Shown in pieces: positions 9,311-60,500 of a DNA stretch of 64,000 nucleotides. Position numbers and translations under genes: made by a program. The stretch's first letter is position 1. Each line of letters begins with the position of its first letter. The notes under the pieces were generated by a model. It did no database searches. It saw only the letters and a list, made by a program, of their open reading frames with translations, and was not told the origin of the DNA. Source of the DNA: Cetorhinus maximus (taxonomy: Eukaryota); the NCBI RefSeq assembly GCF_964194155.1, contig NC_135892.1, positions 83,142,001 to 83,206,000 of the forward strand. Direction: 5' to 3'.

Positions 9311-10571
9311 GGCTCATCTCAAAGTAATAGGCCTGAAAATCCATTGTTCTCTTTTCATGCCAACTCTTATTTTCATGTGTACATGAATCAGAAGAAGATA
9401 AAATTATGTTATGTGGAATAATAATTAATTTTTCAGTTTAAGCACTGTACTGTGGCGACAATACCGAGAGAACGTTTCTGCCTCGGTTGGTGCAAGGGAT
9501 CCAAATTAACAAATTGATAATTAACCCAAGGTGCCATGCTAATTTTCCTATTTGGATTGTGTGTAAGTTAATTCATCTTCACTGGGTTTAGTAGTTCCCC
9601 AAATCAGTTCTTCAGAACTCACTTACGCAAACAAAAATATATTTCTTTTAAATAAGAAAGATGAGCATAAAACCAACATAAGTCATTGCAGATCTTTGAC
9701 CTTTAAAAGAGCTAATAACAAAACCATGCTGATGAATGCTAACAGACTCTATCTCATTTATCAACAGGCTTTACATTTTTTTTCCAATTTGCTCTCCTCT
9801 TTCTCATCATTGTTGGTATATGGGTCAAGAAATTTGGGGTCTTTCTGTTCCATGTGGCTCAATTTAACCACAGAATCATTTCATAAATTGAGAAATCACA
9901 TTAAATGTAGAATTCCACAAACTGAATGTGCAAATAGTCACTTCGGAAATCGCCATTACATTCTTTTTGTCACTCATTCAAAAAGTCATTGTAAAATACT
10001 GAACAAAAACCAACATCTCACACAAAGCGATTACTAAATTCTGCTGTTAACACCTGGCAGGGCTGAAATGTGGATTGACCGACAGAACCCAGAGGACAGA
10101 GGAAGATTTTCTGCCTGCAACAGGATTTTGTGTTTAATGTTATACTTGGATCAGGAAATTTACACAATAGGAGTGAACGGAAAGTGGTTTGGCTCCCTGA
10201 AATTCCATGCTTGGATCAGAGTTATTCTTGGATCAGGTACGTGTTTATCTGGAGCCAGGTGGAACATCATTTGCTCACCAGAATAAAAATTAGAACAAGA
10301 TTACAATCATCAGCACAACTAAAATCTCCTCAAAGCGGCTGAGCTTCCTTGTCTTCTCACCGTTATTTTGGGCATGGGCAACGGATTTTGTTGCACTTCT
10401 TGTTCAGTATTTATATATTTTTGGTCTATTTCTATTGGAGAACTGATTCTAGTAGAAATTATTCTGCAATGTAATGGGGTTTTTAATCTGGTTCTGAAAC
10501 CTGGTCTGTTTCTTTACGGATAGAAATTATGAATGTTACGTTACTAAAGTAGCTGCAAGAAAGCAGCAGCC

Positions 10572-10672
10572 CATAAGACCATAAGATGTAGGAGCAGAAG
10601 TAGGCCATTCGGCCCATCGAGTCCACACCACCATTCAATTAGATCATGGCTGATCTGATAATCCTCAACTCA
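10572..10672 (-). mobile_element. CR1 3' tail fragment
   Basis: ccataagaccataagatgtaggagcagaagtaggccattcggcccatc matches 4832-4910. Confidence 0.85.
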
Positions 10673-10728
10673 AGCCAAGCCCACTTTAATTTTCTGTCTG
10701 GAGATTGCTGAATGTAAAACCAGTAGTG

Positions 10729-10892
10729 AGGCGGTGGCGCAGTGGTATTGTCACTAGATTGGTAATCTAGAGACCAAGGGGAATGCTCTGGGGACCTGTG
10801 GTTCGAATCCTGCCATGGCAGATGGTGGAATTTGCCAACATGAAACCATTGTCGATTGTCGTGCAAAACCCACCTGGTTCAATCATGTCCTT
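10729..10892 (+). mobile_element. tRNA-derived SINE/LINE head forming the 5' part of a chimeric insertion
   Basis: A box tggcgcagtgg at 10735-10745 and B box ggttcgaatcc at 10800-10810; homologous to 28411, 46061 and 57546. Confidence 0.9.
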
Positions 10893-12340
10893 CTGCCAGG
10901 ATCAACTGGGGCAAATATTCTGGACTCCTGGTCGGTCCGTGGCAGGTGGACCCCCTACCCGAGGAGCTCAGGCCTTTCACCTGGAGCAGGACCAGCCTCC
11001 TCTACCTGGGGGTCCATCTCTTCCCTGCTGAGGAATCCTGGCTGGTGAACTGGCAGGAGCTGGAGACCAAAGTTACCGCTTGCCTATGGTGTTGGACAGG
11101 ACTGCTCTGAGTGCTGTCTTACCGGGGTTGAGTTCTGATCATAAACCAGCTGATTGCCCCCATGTTGTGGTACTGGCTGGTCACTTTGACCCTGCCCCTA
11201 GACTTTGTCACAAAAATCCAGAGAACGCTTGTAGACTTATTCTAGGACAAAAGGCTGCACTGGGTTGCTGCTGAGGTTCTGAGTCTCCTGCTTAGGGAAG
11301 GCGGTCAGGCGCTGGTGTGCCTACGCACCCAGGTGGCGACTTTCCGCCTTCAGGCCTTGCAGCGATACCTTTATGTTGAGTCCCCTCCGGGATGGTGTGT
11401 CCTGGCGACCTATTTCTTCCGCCAGGTGCACAGCCTGAATCATGACATGCAGCCCCTGTTTATAGACCTCAGGGGCCTTCGTGGCTCCTTGCAGGCGTTG
11501 CCCGTCTTTTACCAGGACCTGATCAAAGTCTGGAACATGATTGCCTCGTGACGCAGCTCTCCCCTGTCAGGAGTAGCAGCTATCATTAGCTGCTCAGGAA
11601 TCCGCCCCTCTGTCCTTTTCAGTGGCTGGCGGAGAGGAGGGCTGTGGCTGCCGGGGTGACCAGGATCGGGGTCGTGCTGGGTGGCAGAGGAGTGGGCTGG
11701 ATGCTTCCTCAGGAGCTGGCGCGTCGCGCGTCCGTGGACGTCTAGCTCACGGCCAATGCCATTCAAGACCTTAGGACGGTCGTTCTCAGCCCGGATGTCA
11801 TACTCGAGATGGAGCGTACCCCTGTTGGACGGAATTCCGCATTGGCCCCAAACCCTGAACCCTCCCTTGGGACCCGATGCCCCGCAACCTGAGTTGCCGC
11901 ATGGAAATGCCCTCCTTGTCCTTTAGCACAGCGCGGAGGGGTTTCCTGTACAGGTTGCTGCTGCACACCCTTCATTTCCTTGCCCTCGCCCGCAGCCCAG
12001 ACACACCCTGGCCAAGTTAGCCATTGACAGGTCCAGACAGCGGGCGATTGATGGGGTCGTCCGACCCGACTGTCTGCCCGTCTTCCGTGGCTACATTCGT
12101 GGCCGGATGTCCCTGGAGAGGGACCACGCAGTGTCTGCTGGCATCGTCAAGGCCTTCCGTGTTCAGTGGGCACCGCGGGGACTGGGGTGTTTTATTGACG
12201 CCCTTAATCACATTTTGATTTGATGTTTGTAAGTTTCCTTTAAATTTGTCTTTGGTTTTGCAGTTCCCTAATTTAGGGGCTGTGTTTATTTTGTCCCTCA
12301 TTTTGTTAATTTTGTTTAATTGGTTGACTCCAAAAAAGAG
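10893..12340 (+). mobile_element. Tx1/L1-clade LINE, 5'-truncated, degenerate ORF2
   Basis: SARINWGK...LLYLGVHL...NWQELETKV and ATFRLQALQRYLY peptides; T-rich 3' UTR ending caaaaaagag. Confidence 0.82.
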
Positions 12341-12589
12341 TTAAACCAGCAGTGTGGAGCTGGTGCCATCGCCCCCGAGGGAAAGGTGACTTGTGGCAGC
12401 TTACCTCACAAGGTTGGCCATATTTGTTTGTCACCAGTGGGACAGTGTAGGGAAGAACCAACCTGCTGTTGAGATTGTACTGCTGTTGCCAAAGTTGAGG
12501 TTACTATTAGCAGCAGCAGCTGACCTAAAACAACAAGCTTGTCTTTAATGTAGCCTTTTATATAGGGCAGAATTTTCCATGCCCGCTGG

Positions 12590-13396
12590 TGCCAGGGCTC
12601 CTTTCAGCGCTCCGCAGGTGACATCTGTGGGATATCGCAAGCCTCCATTCACAGATGCATCCATGAGGTCACAGTTGCCATCTTACTGAAGGCACACAAT
12701 TTTGTGCATTTTGCCTGGGTCCAGGAGACTGCGGTCACATGGCACTCAGATCTCTGGCAACAAGGGGTCAGCTATGTCAACCGCAAGGGCTTCCATTCAC
12801 TGAATGTGCAGCTAGTATGCAACAACCACAAATGCATCCTGCAGGTCTGCACATGGTTTCCAGAGAGTGTTCACGACTCCTAGATTCTCAGTCAGCCTCA
12901 GCTCCCTGACACCTTCCAGGGTCCACAGAGGCTGCAGGGATGGCTCCTTGGAGACAAGGGCTGCCCAAAGAGGACATGGCTGATGACACCCATGTGGCAG
13001 CCTCAGACTGCAGCAGGGAGAAGGTACAATGGGGCTCATGCTGCAACTCGCACCTTGGTGGAGCAAACCATCGGGATGCTGAAAATGATGTTCCGGTGCC
13101 TGGACCGGTCTGGCGGAGCCCTGCAACACAGTCCACAAAGGGTGTCTCGCATCGTCGTCGCCTGCTGTGCCCTTTACACTCTGGCACTGCAACAGGGAGG
13201 GGAGCTGGCTGAGGAGGAAATGGAGGAGCCGGAGGTCTCCTCCATTGAGGTAGACTTCGATGGGAATGAGGGTGAGGAGGTCCATGAAGGCGAGGATGAT
13301 GGCAGTGAGGTCATCGCTCTGGCCAGACGAGGCAGGCATGCCCGGGAGGCCCTCATAGCTGCAGTATTTGTGGAGGATGATGATGACATGCAGTGA
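12590..13396 (+). pseudogene. Harbinger DDE transposase (HARBI1-like), N-terminally deleted and disrupted
   Basis: NRKGFHSLNVQLVC, WLLGDKG and TRTLVEQTIGMLKMMFRCLDRSGGALQ motifs; acidic C-terminus. Confidence 0.9.
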
Positions 13397-14129
13397 GGAG
13401 ATACAATAAATCTTCATGTTGCATCCGTGAATGTTTGTCTCCAGTCTGACTTATGGCAGTGCACATACTCTCTGTGATAATGCTCCTGTCATGGGGGCAC
13501 AGCGGCAGCCCTAATAGTCACTCAATTGCAGGAGGATGATGACGACATGCAGCGAGGACACTCCATAGATCTTCTCATAGCCTATGTGAATGTCTGACTC
13601 CTATCTGGCTGAGGGCAGCTCGCTTGCGCTCTGTGATCAGGGTCATAACATGGAGACGCAGCCGTGAAACTTTAAATGCACCTGATCCTTTGTCAGCCTT
13701 CAGCACCTGACCCCTTCAGGAGCACAGCGTCACTGGTCATAGATGCTGAAGAGATTGGGAGTGGGGGGGCAGCCCCATCTCAAAGGTGCTGAGCTCACAC
13801 AGAGAGAATGACGGAACTCTGTGACGCCTGCCCATGGCATTCTGGCAGCAATGACAAGCACCATCGAGGTGCAGGCATCACTAATGTTTCCAGGGAGTGT
13901 GAGACCGGACCATCACTTTGGTCTGAAGGTTACACAGTGCACAGGGAAGAGGCCCTGGACTGAGACACCTGCCTTTATCTTGTGCAGGAACCAAGGTTTC
14001 AGATCTGAGTGACACGAACACTGTTCATCATAACAAGGAGCTATAGGCAGGGAGACATTCTAGGGAGTTTATTTAAAATAGTGAATGCTATGTATAAGTG
14101 ATTAATACCCGTGCCCAGGCTGTGCAACT

Positions 14130-15849
14130 ATGTCTTCTTAACCTTCTTAACCCTGCCGCTGCGTTTTGGTGCTCTCCCGACATCTACTACAGAGGTGGAG
14201 GCAGCCTGCTGACTGCTACACCCTGTCTGTGATGACCTTGATGGGCACCCTCAGGAAGGCCAAGACCTGGAGGGCCCCGGCCTGCTTTTGGGATCCTGCT
14301 GTGTGGCAGTGGCACCCTCCTCAGCCTGTGGAGCTGGAACTGCTGGGGTCACAGGAACAGGGGATTCGGATGGGCCGGACACTCCCAGAGTCACCTGGGT
14401 GGTTGGCCCTGGGGTGTGCACCTGCTGATCCTCCTCCATATGGGTGCCCGCAGGCCCCTCGCTGACTTCTTGAGGAGAAGGGGGAGCTGGAGTGAGATCG
14501 AGCTGCCCCTCACCCCTCTCACATTAACACTGCTGGAGGCTAATTATGGCATTAACGATGGAGTTCAGCTCGTGCATCAGTGCAGGACTGATGTCCGGAA
14601 CCAAGATCTCCCTGGCAGCCACCATCCTGCCAGTGTTGACCTCAGTATCTCGGCATGCTGGCGCTCTCATCTCAGGCTGAAGGCAGACAGACTCCTCCAT
14701 TATGCTTTGCAACCTGAGGAGCGCAGCGGACATCCCTTCCTGATGTTCCCGAGCTTGCCTTTGCAGCTACAGCAATTGAAGTATGACCGAGTCCAGAGGC
14801 TTGTCATCTAACTCGGGCTCAGCAGATTTCTGGCCTCCAGCAGTCCTCTGAGTGCCAGAAACCTGGGAAGTCCCTGCATCCACCTGCTGTGGATCAGATG
14901 ATGCAATGTGCCCACCAGATTGTGATCGCAAGGCTACTCTAGAACTTGGACCCACCGAGGTGTGTGCACTGTTGCAAGGTGTGGGTGAGTGGTGTGACAG
15001 GTCTTCAATGAGGGTGCCTTCAGATTTTTTCTCCAAGATGTCTTTGGGGCTTGATTGGAGGCCCTGGGTCATAGACTCTGTCAGTTGTTTGGCAGATGTG
15101 CCTGCAAAAGCAAGGAGAGATAATTAGTGCATGGCAGTGGCCTGTGAAACAGGACACATCACTCACAGCATGGTTGTCTGATGGATGTTGCACTGCTGGA
15201 CCCTCACTCGGCTGAGCACCGCCGACCTCAACGTCAGTGCAGGAATGGTCCAGATCCTCACTCGGCCAGCTGGATGACTTGATTTTCAAAGTCCACGAGG
15301 ACCTTGATTTCAGCCATTCCTCCACCAGTCTGCGACCTCTCCCTCTTGCTGTGAGCCAGTTTGTCCTGCATGAATATGAAGATGGGGAGAGTGTAAGCAG
15401 GATGCCTGCATGCCAGGTAATAAGTATGCCTGACATGTGTGGGTGGTGAGTGGTCCCATGGGTGGCATGAGGACAATGACGGTGTGTGTGAGAGAGTGAA
15501 TGGTGATGTCTCTTGAACTGGTATTGAGTGAGATCCCTGTGGATGTGTGATGGGTTTGTGAGCGCATGAGTTGAGAGTGATGAGAAGAGTGAGTTACCCT
15601 GGTAAGACAGAGGAGATCATGCATGCTCTTGCGGCATTGGGCGGCTGTCCTCATTTGCAGGGCATTGGCTCTGACCACCACTGCCACCACCTCCCAATCC
15701 GGATTAGTGATGTTGCTGCCCCTCCTGCGGCCAGAGCTGGGGTAGAGATCATCATGGCGGGCCTCCACAGAGACCAAAAGCAATTGAGGGATGCCTTACT
15801 AAACCAGGGCAGGGCCTGGGGCTGCAGTTTGCTTGCCTTTCCGGGCCAT
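14130..15849 (-). pseudogene. Harbinger Myb/SANT (trihelix-like) DNA-binding gene, multi-exon
   Basis: ATG at 15849 (MARKGKQTAAP). WEVVAVVVRANALQMRTAAQCRKSMHDL ends at a gtaact donor near 15597; the next exon begins catgcag|gacaaactg. Confidence 0.82.
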
Positions 15850-16126
15850 GTCTTCCATGCAGCAGTCCTGGGCTCGAAGCACTGAGAGGTGTGCACGCGG
15901 CTGCACTTTAAATATGGCGCCCAGTGTGAGTAGGTGACGAGGTGGTGGCATGGCTGGTGAATGATAGCCTGCCCGCCATCAAAATGGCATGTTTCCCAGG
16001 AATGCGTGATTAATGAGGCTGGATTGGGAAGATACGGCATGATAAGCAGCCATTGCAGCCTGCAGGATAAACGCTCTTTTTCCTGCACGGTTGCGCATTT
16101 AGTGCAAACCTGGGACGGTTCCGCCC

Positions 16127-24239: not shown

Positions 24240-26772
24240 ATGCTCCAGAACTTTTCACCCCTCGGACACAGACTGCAAATTAATGTGCATTTTAGGGGGC
24301 AACAGAACAATTGGCCGACTGAGCAAGTTGTATAATCCCCTTGTGAAAGGTGGCCATGGTGCAGTTACTGGTGGAGACGCTCATAGTCCCTTGCAATGTC
24401 TTTATTAAGGTGTGGACCAGTGTCCCTCATCCTTCAAGATAACAGCACAGCTTTGCAGTGTGGGTTAGGAGAATGCCTGAGCTGAGAGCAAAGCATGCAG
24501 TCCAATGGCCGAAGCTGACGACAATTGGCCATTTAGAATGGGGCAAAGGCGGGTTGGGTTTTGGACAGCCAATGAGCCCACAACACACTGGCCATCCAAG
24601 TGGTGGCCAGCGCACTCCTGCATGCGTGAAAGGACCTTCAGACCAAGAGATGTTCTTCATATACCCTGCTAACCCACTCATCTCTCTCTTTGATCCTGCA
24701 GGAGGAGTCCATCAGGATCGTAGAACCTGGTGGTTTGGTGATATGCATCATGGCTTATGGAAACCAGAGAAGATGAAGAAGAGAGCAGCAGAGGGCCCTG
24801 GCTTGACAAAGGGAGGAGCACCTCCCTCAAGATGAAGGATGACTAGGCCGGCTGCACATGCAGCTGAAGATCCACAGCGAACTGTTGCTCGTAGGCACCT
24901 TGCTGGACCCAGGGTCGATAGACGGCGCATGTCATTCCTGCAGATGACTAAGAGTCAGTATCACCGAAGACTTGTGCATAAATAGGGAATTGGTTGGTCA
25001 CATATACCACATGGACACTCTTGAAGTCACCTGGGTGGACGGTCCTGGGGTGTGCACCTGCTGATCCTCCTCCCTATGGGTGCCCAAGGGCCCCTGGCTG
25101 ACTCCTTGAAGAGAAGGGGAAGCTGGAGTGAGATCAAGCTTCCCCATACCCTTCTCTCATTTATACTTTTGGAGGCCAACTATGGCATCAGTGATGGAGT
25201 TCAGCCGGCATGATAGTGCAGGAGCAATGTCCTGGACCAAGGTTTCCATGATGGCCGCCATCCTACCAATGTTGACCTCAGTGCATTTGCATAATACCGG
25301 TGCTGTCACCTCAGAGTGAAGGTGACGGACTCCTCCATCATCCCTTGCAATCTGAGGAGTGCAACGGACATCCCCTCCTGATGTTCCTGAGCTTGTCTTT
25401 GCAGCTCCAACAACTGAGGTATGACCGAGTCCAGAACCTCCTCATCTGACTCGGACTCAGCAAACTCCTGGCCTCCAGTAATCCTCCGAGTGTTGGAAAC
25501 CTGGGAAGTCCCTGCTGCCGCCCGCTGTGGGTCAGACAGTGCGATGTGCTCACCAGATTGTGACCCTGAGGCTACTCTAGAACTAGGTCCCACCGATGTG
25601 TGTGTCTCTGCACTGGTGGAGGGTGTGGGTGAGCACTGTGATGGGTCTTCAATAAGGATGCCTTCTGGTTCTTCTTCCAAGGCGCCTTTAGGCTTGAGTT
25701 GAGGGACTGGGCCGTGGACCCCCTCAGCTGGTTCCCAGATGTGCCTGCAAAAACAAGGAGGGGTAATTAGTGCACGGCAGGGGACTGCAGAACAGGGACA
25801 CTCATTCACAGCACAGTTGCCTGATGGATGTTGCACTGCTGCATCCTCACTTGATTGTGCAGTCCCGACCTCACCGTCAGCACAGGAATGGTCCAGATCG
25901 TCGCCAGCCAGCTGGATGACTCTATTTTCGAAGTCTGTGAGGACCTTGATGTGAGGCATTCCTCCACCAGCCTACGACCTCTCCCTTTTGTTGTGTGCCA
26001 ACTTGTCCTGCATGAATACAGATGGAGAGAGTACAAGCTGGACACCTGCCAGGCCAGATGAGAAGTATGCCTGGTGTGTGGTGAGTGGTGCCATGGATGG
26101 GATGAGGACATGCCCCGAGGTCAGGTGAAGGTGTGTGTGAGATGGTGAATGGTGATGCCCTTTGAACTGGCAGTGAGTGAGGTCCCTGTGGATGTGTGAT
26201 GGGCTTGTGAGTGTGTGAGTTGAGAGTGATGAGAAGATTGACTGACCCTGGTGGAATGGAGGAGATCATTGATCCTCTTTCAACATTGGGTGGCTGTCCT
26301 CTTTTGCAGGATGTTGGCACTGACCACCGCTGTCACCGTCTCCCATGCTGTATTGGTAACCTTGCTTATTGATCTTCGCCCAGAGTGGGGATAGAGGACT
26401 TCACGGCAGGACTTCAGTCCACAATGTCCAGTAGGCATCCAAGGGAGGTGTTGCTAAATTTGGGGGCAGCATGTTTCCCCACTTTGGCAGCCGTGACTTT
26501 CCAGCACCTTAGAGAGAGCTAGCTCTGTACAGGGGCACCCTTTAAATATGGCGCCCGGATTATTGAAGACCTGAGGTGACAGCGAGGCAGGCAAATCAGA
26601 GTCTGCCCTGCCAGTGACCCAGTGTATTTCCCGGGTATGCATTATTAATGAGGTGGGATGCTTCAGGAATGGGATGATAGAGCGCGAAAATCCGCCATGA
26701 TGGCTGGCAGGTAAAACATCCTTTTTTCCTGCCAGCTACCTCATTTTGTGCAAATCTGGGATGATTGCGCCC
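24240..26772. mobile_element. Harbinger transposon, copy B (family of copy A; left TIR lost, internal deletion)
   Basis: Right TIR gggatgattgcgccc. The Myb/SANT gene at 25025-26490 (-) is collinear with 14390-15850. Transposase N-terminus RRMSFLQMTKSQYHRRL at about 24900-25010 (+). Confidence 0.85.
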
Positions 26773-27290
26773 AATGTCTTGTTTTTAAAATGTTCATCCT
26801 CGTTTTCAAATCCCGAAATGGCCTTACCTCTCCCTATCTCCATCATCTCCTCCAGCCCCAAAACCTTCTGATTATATCTGTACTCATCTAATTCTGGCCT
26901 CTTGAGTGTCCCTAATGTTAATCACTCCACCATTGGTGGCCATGTCTTCAGCGTCCTAGGTGCCAATCTCTCCCCAGGAAGTCCCTCCCTACACTTTTCT
27001 GCCTCTCTACCTCACTTTCCTCTTTTAAGGTGTTCCTTAAAAACTTGCTTTTTAACCAAGCTTTTGATCATCTGACCTAATACCTCCTTATGGATACTGC
27101 AAAATATCAGCGCTCAGCACTCACAAGTGTATTATGCAGGGAGATTTTCCAGGCTTGTTTAACGAGTAATATGTGAAATTTAATAATGAGAGGTTCAAAA
27201 AATTAAAGGTGTTTTGTTTATATTGTTCCTGTGATTTGTTTTGGGGCATCTTTATCACATAAAAGGCACTATATAAATATAGGTGGTTAA
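26773..27290 (+). mobile_element. L2 3' part (continuation of 21125-21680)
   Basis: tttaaaatgttcatcctcgttttcaaatcc...aaaggcactatataaat L2 end. Confidence 0.82.
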
Positions 27291-45369: not shown

Positions 45370-47909
45370 ACCTCTGTTTTTCAAACGTATCCCTCTGGAA
45401 ATGAATCCCTGTACTTTGTTATTTTTATGACTTTGTTAACCTGTGATGCCACTTCTAGTGATTTGTGTATATGTATCCCCAGATACACCTGTTCCTCTAC
45501 CCCACACTTATTTTCCAAGGACTATATGGCCTCCTTACCTTTCCTACCAAAATGTACCACCCTCACACTGGTGACATGCCTCCAGGCATTAGCATTAGGT
45601 TCCATTCAGAGAAGCTCTTCAATGTCTCCTGACAGCATTCCTCCACCACAGTCAGAAAGGTTGTAATCAAAGAGCTTCAGTGTGCAGATGAATGTGCTTC
45701 TACCCTAGCTGCCCATAATGAGAAAGACATCCAGACTATGGAAAATTCTCGAGCGCTGCCAAAAGCTTTCATCTCCAAATCAGTGTCTCCAAGGCCAAGG
45801 TTATGTTTCAGCTGGTGCCAGGTGCACACTATGAAGCATCAGATGTAACGATTAATGCACCAGCCTCTAGGTTGTAGAAAAATTGTCCAGAGATGCCACC
45901 ATTAATGAAGATATCTGCACACACATCCGGAAAGCAAGCTCTGCCTATGGCCAACTCCATAATTGTGCTTTGATGGAACATCACGTTAAGCTGACTAAAA
46001 TCAAACTTTACCAGGTCATTGTCTTCACTATTGTCCATTGTTCATTGCCATTGTCCTTCAGGGGAAACTGGTGGCGTAGTGGTAATGTCACTGACCAGTA
46101 ACCAAGAGGCCCAGGTTAATGCTATGGGGCCACGGCAGCTGGTGAAATTTAAATTCAATTAATAGATCTGGAATCAAAAAGTTAGTCTCTGTAATGGTGA
46201 CCAAAAAGCCATTGTCGATTTTTGTAAAAGTCCATCTGGTTCACTAATGTCTTTTAGGGAAGGAAATCTGCTGTCCTTACCTGTTCTGGCCTACATGTGA
46301 CTGCAGACCCACAGCAACGTGCTTGACTCTTAAATGCCTTCTCAAATGGCCTAGCAAGCTATACAGTTATATCAAACTCCAACAAGGTCAAAAAGGAATT
46401 AAACCAGACCTAACATCGACCTCGGCACTGGAAATAACAACAGCACACCCAGCCCTGTCGACCTTGCAAAGTCCTTCTTACTTACATCTGGGGGCTTGTG
46501 CCAGAATTGGGAATGTTGTCCCATAGACTAATCAAGCAACAGTCTGGCATAGCCATACTCACCGAATTATACCTTACAGACAATGTTCCAGACACCAGCA
46601 TCACCATCACCATCCCTGGGTATGTCCTCTCCCACTGTTATTACAGACCCACCAGAGGAGACAGTCAATGGTATACAGTCAGGAGGGAGTTGCCCTGGGA
46701 GCTCTCAACATCGACTCTGGACCCCATGAATTCTCCTCAGGTCAAACATGGGCAAGGAAATCTCCTGCTGATTACCACCCACTGCCCTTCATGTGCTGAT
46801 GAATCAGTATGCCTCCATGTTGAACACCAATTGGAAGAAGCACCGAGGGTGGCAGGGCACAGAATATACTCTGGGTGGAAGAATTCAATGTCCATCACCA
46901 AGAGTGGCCAGGTAGCATCATTACAGACTGAGCTGGCCAAGTCTTCAAGGACATTGCTGCTAGTTTGGGCCTGTGGCAGGTGGTGAGAGAACCAACAAGA
47001 GGGAAAAACCTACTTGACATTGCCCTCACCAACCTACCTGTCGCAGATGCACCTGGATGCATCTGTAGGAGTGACCACTGAACAGTCCTTGTGGAGACGA
47101 AATCCCAACTTCACATTGAGGATACCAGATTGCGAACAGATCTAGCAGCTCAAAACTGAACTCCAGAGGTGAGGTGAGAGTGACTGCCCTTGACATCAAG
47201 GCATCATTTGGCTGAGTGTGGCATCAAGGAACTGAAGTCAATGGGAATCAGGAGGAAAATTGGAGTCATACCTAGCACGAAAGAAGATGGTTGTGGTTAT
47301 TGAAGGTCAATAATTTCAGTTCCAGGACATCACTGCAGGAGTTCCTCAGGGTAGCATCCTCAGCCCAGCCATCTTCAGCTGCTTCATCAATGACCTTCCT
47401 TCCATCATAAGGTCAGAAGTGGGGATGTTCACTGATGATTGCACGATGTTCAGCACCATTCGCAACTCTTCAGATACTGAAGCAGTCCATGTCCAAATGC
47501 AGCAAGACTTGAACAATATCCAGGCTTGAGCTGATAAGTGGCAAGTAACATTCGCGCAACACAAGTGCCAGGCAATGACCATCTCCAACAAGAGAGAATC
47601 TAACCATCGACCCTTGATGTTCAATGGCATTATCATTGCTGAATCTCCCACTGTCAACATCCTGGGGGTTACCGTTGACCAGAAATTGAACTGGATCAGC
47701 CATATAAACACTATAGCTACAAGAGCAGGTCAACGGCTGGGAATTGAGATGCCTCCAGACTCCCCCAAAGCCTGTCCACCATCTACAAGGCACAAGTCAG
47801 GAATGTGCTGGAATACTCTCCGCTTACCTGGGTGAGTGCAGCTCCAACCACACTCCAGAAGCTCGACACCATCCAAGACATAGCAGCCAGCTTGATTGGC
47901 GCCCCATCC

Positions 47910-57545: not shown

Positions 57546-60500
57546 GGGGGGAGGCGATGGCATAGTGGTATTGTCGTTGGACTAGAAATCCAGAGTCCCA
57601 GGTTAATGCTCAGATTTGAACCCCGCCTCGGCAGATGGTGGAATTTGAATTCAATAAAAATCTGGAATGAAAAGTCTAATGATGACCATGAAAACATTGT
57701 CGATGGTTGCGAAAACCCATCTGGTTCACTAATGTCCTTTAGGGAAGGAAATCTGTCATCCATACCTGGTCTGGCCTACATGTGACTCCAGACCCACAGC
57801 AATGTGGTTGACTCTGAAATGGCCTGGCAAGCCACTCAGTTGTAACAAACCACTACAAAGTCACAAAAATGAAATGAAACCGGACGGACTACCCAGCATC
57901 GACCTAGGCACCGGAAACGACAATGGCAATCTCAGCCCTGTCGACCCGGCAAAGTTCTCCTTGCTAACATCTGGGGGCTAGTGCCAAAATTGGGAGACTA
58001 GTCACAGACTATTCAAGCAACAGCCTGACATGAAATCATATCTTACAGCTAATGTCCCAGACACCACCATCACCATCCTTGGGTATGTCCTGTCCCACCA
58101 GCAGGACAGACCCAGTAGAGGTGGCAGCACAGTGGTATGCGGTTGGGAGGGAGTCCCCAACATTGACTCCGGACCCCATGAATTCTCATGGCATCAGGTC
58201 AAACATGGGCAAGGAAACCCCCTGCTGATTACCACGTGCCGCCCTCCCTCAGCTGATGAATCAGTGCTCCTCCATGTTGAACACCACTTGGAGAAAGCAC
58301 TGAGGGTGGCAAGGGTGCAGAATGTACTCTGGGTGGAGGACTTCAATGTCCATCACCAAGTGTAGCTCGGTAGCACCACTACTGAGCGAGCTGGCCAAAT
58401 CCTAAATGACATAGCTGCTAGACTGGGTCTGCAGCAGGTGGTGAGGGAACCAACAAGAGGGGAAAATATACTTGATCTCATCACCCTGCCTGCCGCAGAT
58501 GCATCTGTCCATGACAGTATCGATAGGATTGACCACCGCACAGTCGTGGAGACGAAGTCACATTGAGGATCACCTCCATCATGTTGTGTGGCACCACCAC
58601 TGTGCTAAATGGGATAGGTTTTGAACAGATCTAGCAACTCAAGACTGGACATCCATATGGCAGCACTGTGGGCCATCAACAGCAGCAGGATTGTATTTGA
58701 ACACAATTTGTAACCTCGTTGCCCGGCCTATCCCCCACTCTACCATTACCATCAAGTCAGGGGATCAACCCTGCTTCAATGCAGAGTCCAGGAGGGCATG
58801 CCAGGGGCAGCGCCAGGCATACCTAAAAATGAGGCGTCAACCTGGTGAAGCTATAACACAGGACGACTTGCGTGGCAAACAACATAAGCAGCAAGTGATA
58901 GACAGAGGTAAGCAACCCCACAACCAATGGATCAGATCTAAGCTCTGCAGTCCTGCCACATCCAGTCGGGAATGGTGGTAAACCACTCGCTAGAGAAGGA
59001 AGCTCCACAAAAATCCCCATCCTCAATGATGGAGGAGCCCTGCGCATCAGTGCAAAAGATGAGACTGAAGCATTTGCTACAATCTTCAGCCAGAAGTGCT
59101 GAGTGAATGATCCATCTCGGCCTCCTCCAGAGGCCCCCAGCATCACAGATGCCAGCCTTCAGCCAATTCGATTCACTCCACATGAAATCAAGAAACGACA
59201 GATGGCACTGGATACTGCAAAGGCTATGGTCCCTGACAATATTCCAGCAATAGTACCGAACACTTGTGCTCCAGAACTTGCTGCGCCCCTAGCCAAGCTG
59301 TTCCAGTACAGCTACAACACTGGCATCCACCCAGCTATGTGTAAAATTGTCTAAGTATGTCTTGTACACAAAAAGCAGGACAAATCAAACCCAGCCAATT
59401 ACTGCCCCATCAGTCTACTCTCGATCATCAGTAAACTAATGGAAGGGGTCATCAACAGTGCTATCAAGTGGCACTTGCTTAGCAATAACCTGCTCACTGA
59501 CACCCAGTTTGGGTTCCGCCAGGGCCACTCAGCTCCTGACCTCATTACAGCCTTGGTTCAAATATGGACAAAAGAGCTGAACTCCCAAGGTGGGGTGAGA
59601 GTGACTGCCCTTGACATCAAGGCAGCATTTGACTGAGTGTGGCATCAAGGAGCTCCAGCAAAACTGGAGTCAATGGGAATCAGGGGGAAAACTCTCCACT
59701 GGTTGGAGTCATATCTACCACAAAGGAAAATGGTTGTGGTTGTTGCAGGTCAGTCATCTCAGCTCCAGGACATCACTGCAGGAGTTCCTCAGGGTAGTGT
59801 CCTAGGCCCAACCATCTTCAGCTGCTCCATCAATGACCTTCCTTCCATCATAAGGTCAGAAGTGGGGATGCTCGCTGATGATTGCAAAACGTTCAGCACC
59901 ATTCGCGACTCCTCAGATACTGAAGCAGTCCATGTCCAAATGCAGCAAGGCCTGGACAATATCCAGTCTTGGGCTGACAAGTGACAAGTAACATTCATGC
60001 CACACAAGTGTCAGGCAATGACCATCTCCAACAAGAGAGAATCCTACCAGCACCCCTTGATGTTCAATGACATTACCATCACTGAATCCCCCACTATCAA
60101 CCTCCTAGGGGTTACCATTGACCGGAAACTGATATAAATACTATGGCTATAAGAGCAGGTTAGAGGCCAAGAATCCTGTGATGAGTAACTCATCTCCTGA
60201 CTCCCCAAAGCCTGCCCACCATCTAGAAGGCACAAGTCAGAAGTGTGATGGAATACTCCCCAACCGCCTGGATGAGTGCAGCTCCCACAACACTCAAGAA
60301 GCTCGACATCATCCAGGACAAAGCAGCCCGCTTGATTGGCACTGCAGGAATTCACCAAGGCTCCTTCGTCAGCACCTTCCAAACCCCCAACCATTACCGT
60401 ATAGAAGGACAAGGACAGCACAACCATTACCATATAGAAGGACATGGGAACACCACCACCTGGAAATTCCCCTCCAAATCACTGACTTGGAAATATATCG

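What the first reader, a model, noticed from the sequence alone, without database searches (positions are those of the whole stretch)
10715..12354. tRNA-head/Tx1 chimera inserted as one event
Seen: the head (10729-10892, intact A and B boxes) joins directly to a 5'-truncated Tx1 ORF2. The pair is bracketed by a 14-bp TSD-like repeat, taaaaccagtagtg (10715-10728) / ttaaaccagcagtg (12341-12354), 12/14 identical. Known: L1-clade RTs switch template onto abundant Pol III RNAs (U6-L1 chimeras). Inference: head RNA was abundant in the germ line, and this is the route by which a LINE could acquire a Pol III promoter.
Basis: partly seen in the sequence, partly recalled or inferred. Interest (0 to 1): 0.7.

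Follow-up and report, generated by a model that had tools for sequence, protein, structure and literature searches.

The report
Shark retrotransposon captured a SINE head
A dead jumping-gene copy carries the front half of a short repeat RNA inside one insertion scar, likely picked up when its copying enzyme switched templates; the same family also caught rRNA, pre-tRNA and 5S RNA, a known kind of accident that likely seeds new short repeats (SINEs) rather than giving long elements a new promoter.

Summary
Observation confirmed, with a one-base correction. The duplication is 10715-10728 / 12342-12354 and starts at TAA right after the element's GAGT end, as this Tx1 family's duplications do (27 of 35 are 8-16 bp). 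The SINE makes none (0 of 15). Two related species restore the missing A. The 'head' is the first ~200 nt of a tRNA-headed SINE/LINE, less a ~39-bp deletion, joined to Tx1 through 3 shared bases; the junction is unique in the genome. The family prefers one site in a Harbinger transposon (18 of 28 copies). There, 3 of 35 insertions carry captured RNA inside the duplication (18S, 28S, whole pre-tRNA-Ile); two 5S captures were also found, one with only the last 16 nt of Tx1. One insertion event with a template switch is likely. The promoter-acquisition idea fails for this copy: no RT, eight TTTT runs, never amplified, and full-length copies lack such a head. No empty orthologous site was found. 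The mechanism is known (L1 chimeras, crocodilian Tx1/SINEU); the scan has noted the tRNA-headed LINE and Tx1 stacking elsewhere in this genome.

The parts
10715..10728 (+). Upstream copy of the target-site duplication (TAAAACCAGTAGTG); its last G may also be the first base of the head
   Evidence: begins with TAA like the family's duplications
10728..10892 (+). Captured 5' part (~200 nt before deletion) of the tRNA-headed SINE/LINE, from its natural 5' end; A box 10735-10745, B box 10800-10810
   Evidence: 144 of 163 positions equal the majority of 29 other copies
10834..10839 (+). Junction of a ~39-bp internal deletion in the head, private to this copy
   Evidence: a 21-mer across it has 1 match in the genome at <=1 mismatch
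10890..10892 (+). Head/Tx1 junction: CTT fits both the head (TGTCCTT) and the Tx1 variant seen in 14 of 29 copies (GTCTTCTGCC)
   Evidence: junction unique (the one 2-mismatch hit, L180, is a SINE fragment without Tx1)
10890..12223 (+). 5'-truncated, decayed Tx1 ORF2: end of RT and the C-terminal region; deletions of 7 bp (~11589), ~33 bp (~11807-11826) and ~350-360 bp (12007-12012, 6-nt microhomology)
   Evidence: 93% identical to family majority over 10893-11800
12224..12341 (+). Tx1 3' UTR, T-rich, ending in ACTC-loop-GAGT, which can form a 7-bp hairpin with the following TAA; no poly(A)
   Evidence: the fold shows the stem but is not better than shuffles (z -0.29)
12342..12354 (+). Downstream copy of the duplication (TAAACCAGCAGTG); orthologous contigs of two related species carry one more A
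   Evidence: table 4
12565..16126 (.). Neighbouring Harbinger-type transposon (transposase +, Myb-like gene -), with an unoccupied copy of the Tx1 target site at 14128/14129; context, not part of the insertion
   Evidence: DDE_Tnp_4 E 1e-14; Myb_DNA-bind_4 only E 0.047

Best explanation
The head and the Tx1 fragment sit inside one Tx1-type target-site duplication and were likely inserted in a single retrotransposition event, in which the reverse transcriptase likely switched from Tx1 RNA onto RNA of the tRNA-headed SINE/LINE. Shown: the duplication's register and length fit this Tx1 family; the SINE makes no duplications; the head begins at its natural 5' end; the junction shares 3 nt; the junction is unique; sister copies hold other RNAs inside their duplications. 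Inferred: the endonuclease nicked at the TAA site, the RNA's hairpin end primed cDNA, about 1.85 kb (before later deletions) was copied, the enzyme jumped to position ~200 of the second RNA, ran off its 5' end, and second-strand cleavage 14 bp away closed the event. The product was dead on arrival: no EN or RT, and Pol III starting in the head would meet TTTT at 11507 (present in 22 of 25 family copies). Such switches would give a Pol III-competent element only if they fall in the last ~35 nt of Tx1, which are free of TTTT. That product would be a SINE, not a LINE, and L203 (5S rRNA plus the last 16 nt) has that form.
For: Family duplications start at TA(A/C) after GAGT; 27 of 35 are 8-16 bp (non-target examples). 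0 of 15 full-length SINE copies show one (best score 4). Chance 0.0003-0.0017. Orthologous contigs in organisms A (X6) and B (X8, X11, one sample) join the Tx1 end to the unique flank and carry the extra A, making the two copies equal in length. 3 of 35 target-site insertions hold sense-oriented RNA between duplication and Tx1: L022 18S 3' end, L121 28S, L149 tRNA-Ile. L149 matches a tRNA gene array from leader to T-run terminator. 5S captures: L186 and L203. No duplication remnant lies between head and Tx1. Last TTTT is 31-38 nt from the 3' end in 68 of 78 copies.
Against: No empty orthologous site was seen, and the 5' half could not be read in any run, including the own species. This copy has four other deletions, one with 6-nt microhomology, so junction microhomology does not separate a switch from a later deletion. 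The head is further from its family majority (88%) than the Tx1 part (93%), though the head majority mixes subfamilies. No head capture was found at the main target site. The family often stacks insertions at one nick, which offers a two-event route.
Confidence: 0.75

Rival explanations
1. One insertion, but the two RNAs were joined before reverse transcription (ligation as for U6/L1, or RNA recombination) and the chimeric RNA was copied straight through.
For: RtcB ligation is shown for U6/L1 (PMC6789731, abstract). L149 ends exactly at the Pol III T-run and shows no microhomology with Tx1, which looks like end-joining.
Against: Here the head ends inside the repeat, not at a terminator, and shares 3 nt with Tx1. 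Internal switching was proposed for 3'-truncated U5/L1 chimeras (PMC4476161, passages).
Confidence: 0.1
2. Two events at one nick: the Tx1 copy came first, Tx1 machinery later placed SINE/LINE-head RNA at the upstream duplication, and a deletion removed the middle duplication with both neighbouring ends.
For: Stacking at one nick is common in this family (L003, L009, L016, L186). An SRSF7-like processed mRNA is stacked ahead of a Tx1 at the target (L181). This copy has four other deletions.
Against: Needs an extra deletion. 0 of 15 SINE copies carry duplications and no head follows the main target, so Tx1 rarely moves this RNA alone. All 5 small-RNA captures seen are joined directly, with no middle duplication.
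Confidence: 0.1
3. Independent insertions: a SINE or LINE landed by its own machinery at the 5' edge of an existing Tx1 copy (or the repeat is chance), and a deletion fused them.
For: Heads are dense, 4 in this 64-kb window. The head looks somewhat older. First readers pick such coincidences out of many windows.
Against: The head would have to start within a base or two of the duplication's end, in the same orientation, and then lose its 3' half. The repeat is in family register and unlikely by chance, and becomes 13 of 14 with the orthologues' A if their other bases match the window.
Confidence: 0.05

Closest known systems
Alu/L1, tRNA/L1, rRNA/L1 and U6/L1 chimeric insertions of mammals (PMC11838501 passages; PMC4476161 passages; PMC6789731 abstract)
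   Same: A non-LINE RNA at the 5' end of a truncated LINE inside one duplication; SINE, tRNA, 5S and 28S partners are all reported; 113 Alu/L1 cases, mostly sense.
   Different: Tx1-type element with a hairpin end and no poly(A). The SINE part is 3'-truncated (Alu parts are mostly full length). The tRNA and 5S captures here are whole and sense, whereas human ones are mostly halves or fragments and antisense.
Crocodilian Tx1-Mar / SINEU and U1/U2-headed Tx1 families (Kojima 2015, PMC4494074; parts 1, 3, 4 of 5 read)
   Same: Tx1 elements that prefer a site in a DNA transposon, with repeated addition of small-RNA heads by template switch, sometimes at short homologies.
   Different: There the headed forms amplified as families and the target is Mariner-N4. 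Here the head chimera is single, and near-full-length copies have no small-RNA head.
Tx1-9_AMi, inserted ~300 bp from the 5' ends of Harbinger transposons (PMC4494074, part 3)
   Same: Tx1 with a preferred site in Harbinger.
   Different: The site here lies ~1.56 kb from one end, between the converging transposase and Myb-like genes, at a stop codon ending a long minus-strand frame. Relationship to Tx1-9_AMi was not tested (Repbase not available).
Elasmobranch Zenon LINEs (PMC13343379, passages) and their tRNA-headed SINE partner
   Same: The captured head also begins a longer element with an endonuclease-like reading frame (13 of 38 heads).
   Different: The name Zenon comes from earlier scan notes, not from a test here; that paper has 0 occurrences of 'tRNA'. 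Only the 5' ~200 nt are in this insertion.

Membership tests
Tx1-clade non-LTR retrotransposon | ORF2 RT closest to Tx1-type proteins | tested here: met
   Family ORF (L078) has RVT_1 E 2e-32; hits named 'transposon TX1 ... 149 kDa' at 46-51% identity and 407-418 bits against 144 bits for human L1 ORF2p; window matches such a protein.
Tx1-clade non-LTR retrotransposon | Placement in the Tx1 clade on an RT tree with named references | not tested
   No reference set of named clade members was on hand; assignment rests on similarity and source names.
Tx1-clade non-LTR retrotransposon | Target-sequence preference | tested here: met
   18 of 28 loci picked by Tx1 sequence alone end at one Harbinger site; insert lengths and duplication lengths vary, so insertions are independent. 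The window copy is at a non-Harbinger TAA site.
Chimeric retrotransposition (template switch or RNA joining) | Both parts inside one LINE-type duplication | tested here: met
Chimeric retrotransposition (template switch or RNA joining) | Captured part starts at the RNA's natural 5' end, same orientation | tested here: met
   Head starts within the family's GGGGAGGC start.
Chimeric retrotransposition (template switch or RNA joining) | Empty orthologous site with one copy of the duplication; both parts arrive together | tested here: inconclusive
   Two related species are filled at the 3' junction; the 5' side was not covered in any of the 6 runs laid.
tRNA-derived SINE (SINE2) as an amplified family | A and B boxes in a tRNA-related head | tested here: met
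tRNA-derived SINE (SINE2) as an amplified family | Multiple copies sharing the head-tail junction | tested here: not met
   One true junction in the genome at <=2 mismatches; none of 39 other best hits spans it.
tRNA-derived SINE (SINE2) as an amplified family | No Pol III terminator before the 3' end | tested here: not met
   Eight TTTT runs, first at 11507; none is longer than four T, so leaky read-through is not excluded (terminator rule from general knowledge).
LINE with a Pol III head | Coding capacity (EN and RT) behind the head | tested here: not met
   Fragment starts at the end of RT (aa ~721 of a 1296-aa homologue) and is broken by stops and deletions.
Deu-domain SINE superfamily | Deu central domain | not tested
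   Resemblance of the body after the head is recalled; no Deu reference was available.

The most novel reading that the evidence does not exclude
This shark Tx1 family is a readable SINE nursery. Its fixed Harbinger target lets every capture be read with both flanks known, it grabs whole Pol III primary transcripts (pre-tRNA to its terminator, 5S), and a TTTT filter lets only switches in its last ~35 nt become live SINEs. L203 (5S plus 16-nt hairpin) would be a proto-SINE3 caught at birth, and the hairpin-ended tRNA mini-SINE noted elsewhere in this genome the amplified outcome.
Probability: 0.35. Interest if true: 0.65.

Novelty: new member of a known kind. Interest (0 to 1): 0.38.

Why it matters
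The single chimera is ordinary. The family around it makes an old idea testable: that SINEs are born when a LINE's reverse transcriptase joins a Pol III RNA to the LINE's 3' end (stated in PMC4476161, conclusion passage). A fixed target site gives capture rates per RNA class and junction types, and the T-run map predicts which captures can live. It also argues against this route giving a Tx1 LINE a working Pol III promoter.

Tried and rejected
Empty site in paralogues: the downstream flank 12343-12570 is single-copy; the upstream flank matches only through a ~100-bp repeat fragment. Empty site in orthologues: none; the second lay gave no contig over 10672-10715 even in the own species, so holes there mean nothing, and only close relatives were offered. 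Amplified chimeric family: rejected. A head subfamily with the 39-bp deletion: not found. Duplication inherited from the SINE: rejected, 0 of 15 (0 of 6). Tx1 amplified by hitch-hiking in Harbinger: rejected, insert sizes 117-1383 bp differ at one site. L120's 231-bp extra was dropped from the capture count because its duplication lies directly against Tx1. SINE heads near Tx1 in L067, L071, L083 are antisense or detached. The 8-of-12 likeness between the head start and the bases after the downstream duplication is treated as chance; two species differ from the window at one of the matching bases. Folding of the head gave no cloverleaf signal (z -0.25). Weak Pfam hits on the C-terminal piece were below cut-off. 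Whether the template was SINE or LINE RNA could not be decided. Search by sequence of earlier notes gave nothing.

Full report
Setting. The window lies on contig C14 of a 3.99-Gb genome. That it is a shark is recalled from the repeats and stated in earlier scan notes; it was not tested.

Observation. The head has A and B boxes at 10735 and 10800 but is not a tRNA gene. It is the start of an abundant repeat (2637 first-look candidates). Of 38 heads held, 15 continue as a SINE of 258-388 nt, 13 as a longer element with an endonuclease-like frame, and 10 are other or cut. The window holds the first ~200 nt, with a private ~39-bp deletion. From 10890 the sequence is Tx1 ORF2: a family ORF carries RVT_1, hits proteins named TX1 149 kDa at 407-418 bits against 144 for human L1, and the window matches such a protein from the end of RT. 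The copy is 93% identical to the family majority and has three deletions.

The duplication. Family copies end in GAGT without poly(A), and what follows nearly always begins TAA or TAC. Where both ends are visible, the duplication starts at that T: 27 of 35 insertions at the main target have 8-16 bp. The window pair is therefore 10715-10728 / 12342-12354, in family register, with one indel and one transition. The chance of such an anchored match is 0.0003-0.0017 (2 of 3000, where the pool included the locus). Contigs from two related species join the Tx1 end to the unique flank and have one more A at 12342 (X6, X8, X11; X19 has no cover), so the indel is likely a recent loss. None of 15 full-length SINE copies has a duplication, so the repeat is the work of Tx1, and it encloses the head.

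The junction. The head ends TGTCCTT, and 14 of 29 Tx1 copies read GTCTTCTGCC there, giving 3 shared bases. It is unique: none of 39 other best hits of 1203 candidates spans it, and a pattern scan at two mismatches gave one other hit, a SINE fragment without Tx1. The ~350-bp deletion in the same copy also has microhomology, so shared bases alone do not prove a switch.

The family gives the control. 18 of 28 loci chosen by Tx1 sequence end at one site in a Harbinger-type transposon; an unoccupied copy of that site is at window 14128. With both half-sites known, 3 of 35 insertions hold foreign RNA between duplication and Tx1: the 3' end of 18S, a 28S piece, and tRNA-Ile. The sample favours copies under 1.5 kb and best-scoring hits; 43 of 78 ends had no visible half-site and were not counted. 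The tRNA capture matches a tandem gene array from the 5-nt leader to the T-run terminator, so it is a primary Pol III transcript. Rfam on 18 of 20 extended loci found a whole 5S rRNA joined to Tx1 within a stack (L186). A pattern scan found L203: 14-bp duplication, whole 5S, then only the last 16 nt of Tx1. Capture of cellular RNA is thus routine for this family.

Against. The same scan with the head found 0 (sensitivity about 19/29 x 18/35 = 0.34) against 1 for 5S, so head capture is rare and abundance of the RNA is not shown. The head is 88% identical to its mixed majority. Stacking at one nick is frequent, including an SRSF7-like processed mRNA with poly(A) and a middle duplication (L181), so stack plus deletion remains possible. 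No empty orthologue was seen, and the 5' half was unreadable.

Mechanism. Most likely one target-primed event with a jump to position ~200 of the SINE/LINE RNA and run-off at its 5' end (0.75). RNA joining before copying (0.10), stack plus deletion (0.10) and coincidence (0.05) are the rivals. The promoter idea fails for this copy: no EN or RT, eight TTTT runs with the first conserved in 22 of 25 copies, and 1-12 more per 1.4 kb upstream in other copies. Among 11 extended loci with the upstream half-site, the near-full-length copies begin with GCT-rich UTR sequence and no Rfam small RNA. Only the last ~35 nt are free of TTTT, so a viable product would be a SINE like L203. That L203 is transcribed or amplified is not shown; one hit at a site that takes about two-thirds of insertions suggests few copies.

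Known work. L1 chimeras with Alu, tRNA, 5S and 28S (PMC11838501, passages); template switching across LINE clades and its proposed role in SINE origin (PMC4476161, passages); ligation for U6/L1 (PMC6789731, abstract and start of introduction); Tx1 families with U1/U2 heads and a Harbinger-targeting Tx1-9_AMi (PMC4494074, parts 1, 3, 4 of 5); tailless retrocopies (PMC2912911, passages); SINE bodies (PMC5786205, passages); shark Zenon LINEs (PMC13343379, passages). Searches listed no paper on a shark Tx1 with this target or on these captures. Repbase and the supplements of Kojima 2015 (target figures) were not seen and may bear on that.

Verdict. Real, most likely a single chimeric insertion, and a new member of a known kind. 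Interest 0.38, carried mainly by the family census and L203.

Noticed in passing
window 14128/14129 and loci L004-L030, L103-L161: The Tx1 family prefers one site in a Harbinger-type transposon (18 of 28 loci). The nick falls on a stop codon ending a long minus-strand frame (266-268 aa open in L104, L107); after insertion the element's own end supplies a stop again, so the host gene may be spared. Stop counts did not separate this frame from one other (11 vs 9).
   Followed up: partly
L203:1396-1514 (-) and the 16 nt that follow: Whole 5S rRNA plus the last 16 nt of Tx1 inside a 14-bp duplication at the Harbinger site: the form of a minimal SINE3. Copy number beyond this scan not measured.
   Followed up: partly
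L149:909-1102: Whole pre-tRNA-Ile(AAT), leader to terminator, joined to a truncated Tx1 without microhomology; source matches a ~1.5-kb-spaced tRNA gene array on C36.
   Followed up: yes
L169, L170, L172, L174, L176, L177: Dispersed 3'-truncated copies of the same pre-tRNA-Ile with its trailer, each flanked by what look by eye like 9-16 bp direct repeats and without tails: tailless retrocopies of an unprocessed transcript.
   Followed up: partly
L022:1169-1343; L121:1128-1265; L186:4799-4917: 18S 3' end, 28S fragment and whole 5S rRNA captured at Tx1 5' ends inside duplications.
   Followed up: yes
L181:5985-6905 (-): SRSF7-like processed mRNA with poly(A), at the Harbinger target and stacked ahead of a near-full-length Tx1: a host mRNA placed at the Tx1 site.
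   Followed up: partly
window 46070-47126 and 57547-58717: Two copies of the longer element that starts with the same tRNA-like head and runs into an endonuclease-like frame; already noted by the scan.
   Followed up: partly
window 10571-10671: ~100-bp fragment of another abundant repeat (1163 candidates) just upstream; CR1-like 3' end by recall.
   Followed up: no
window 25013-26773: Second, partial Harbinger copy, 66-79% identical to the one at 12565-16126.
   Followed up: no
L120:971-1201: About 220 bp of unidentified sequence inserted at the target's TA just upstream of a Tx1 duplication; no Rfam match.
   Followed up: no
L002: Several Tx1 3' fragments in alternating orientation around a short duplicated insertion.
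   Followed up: no
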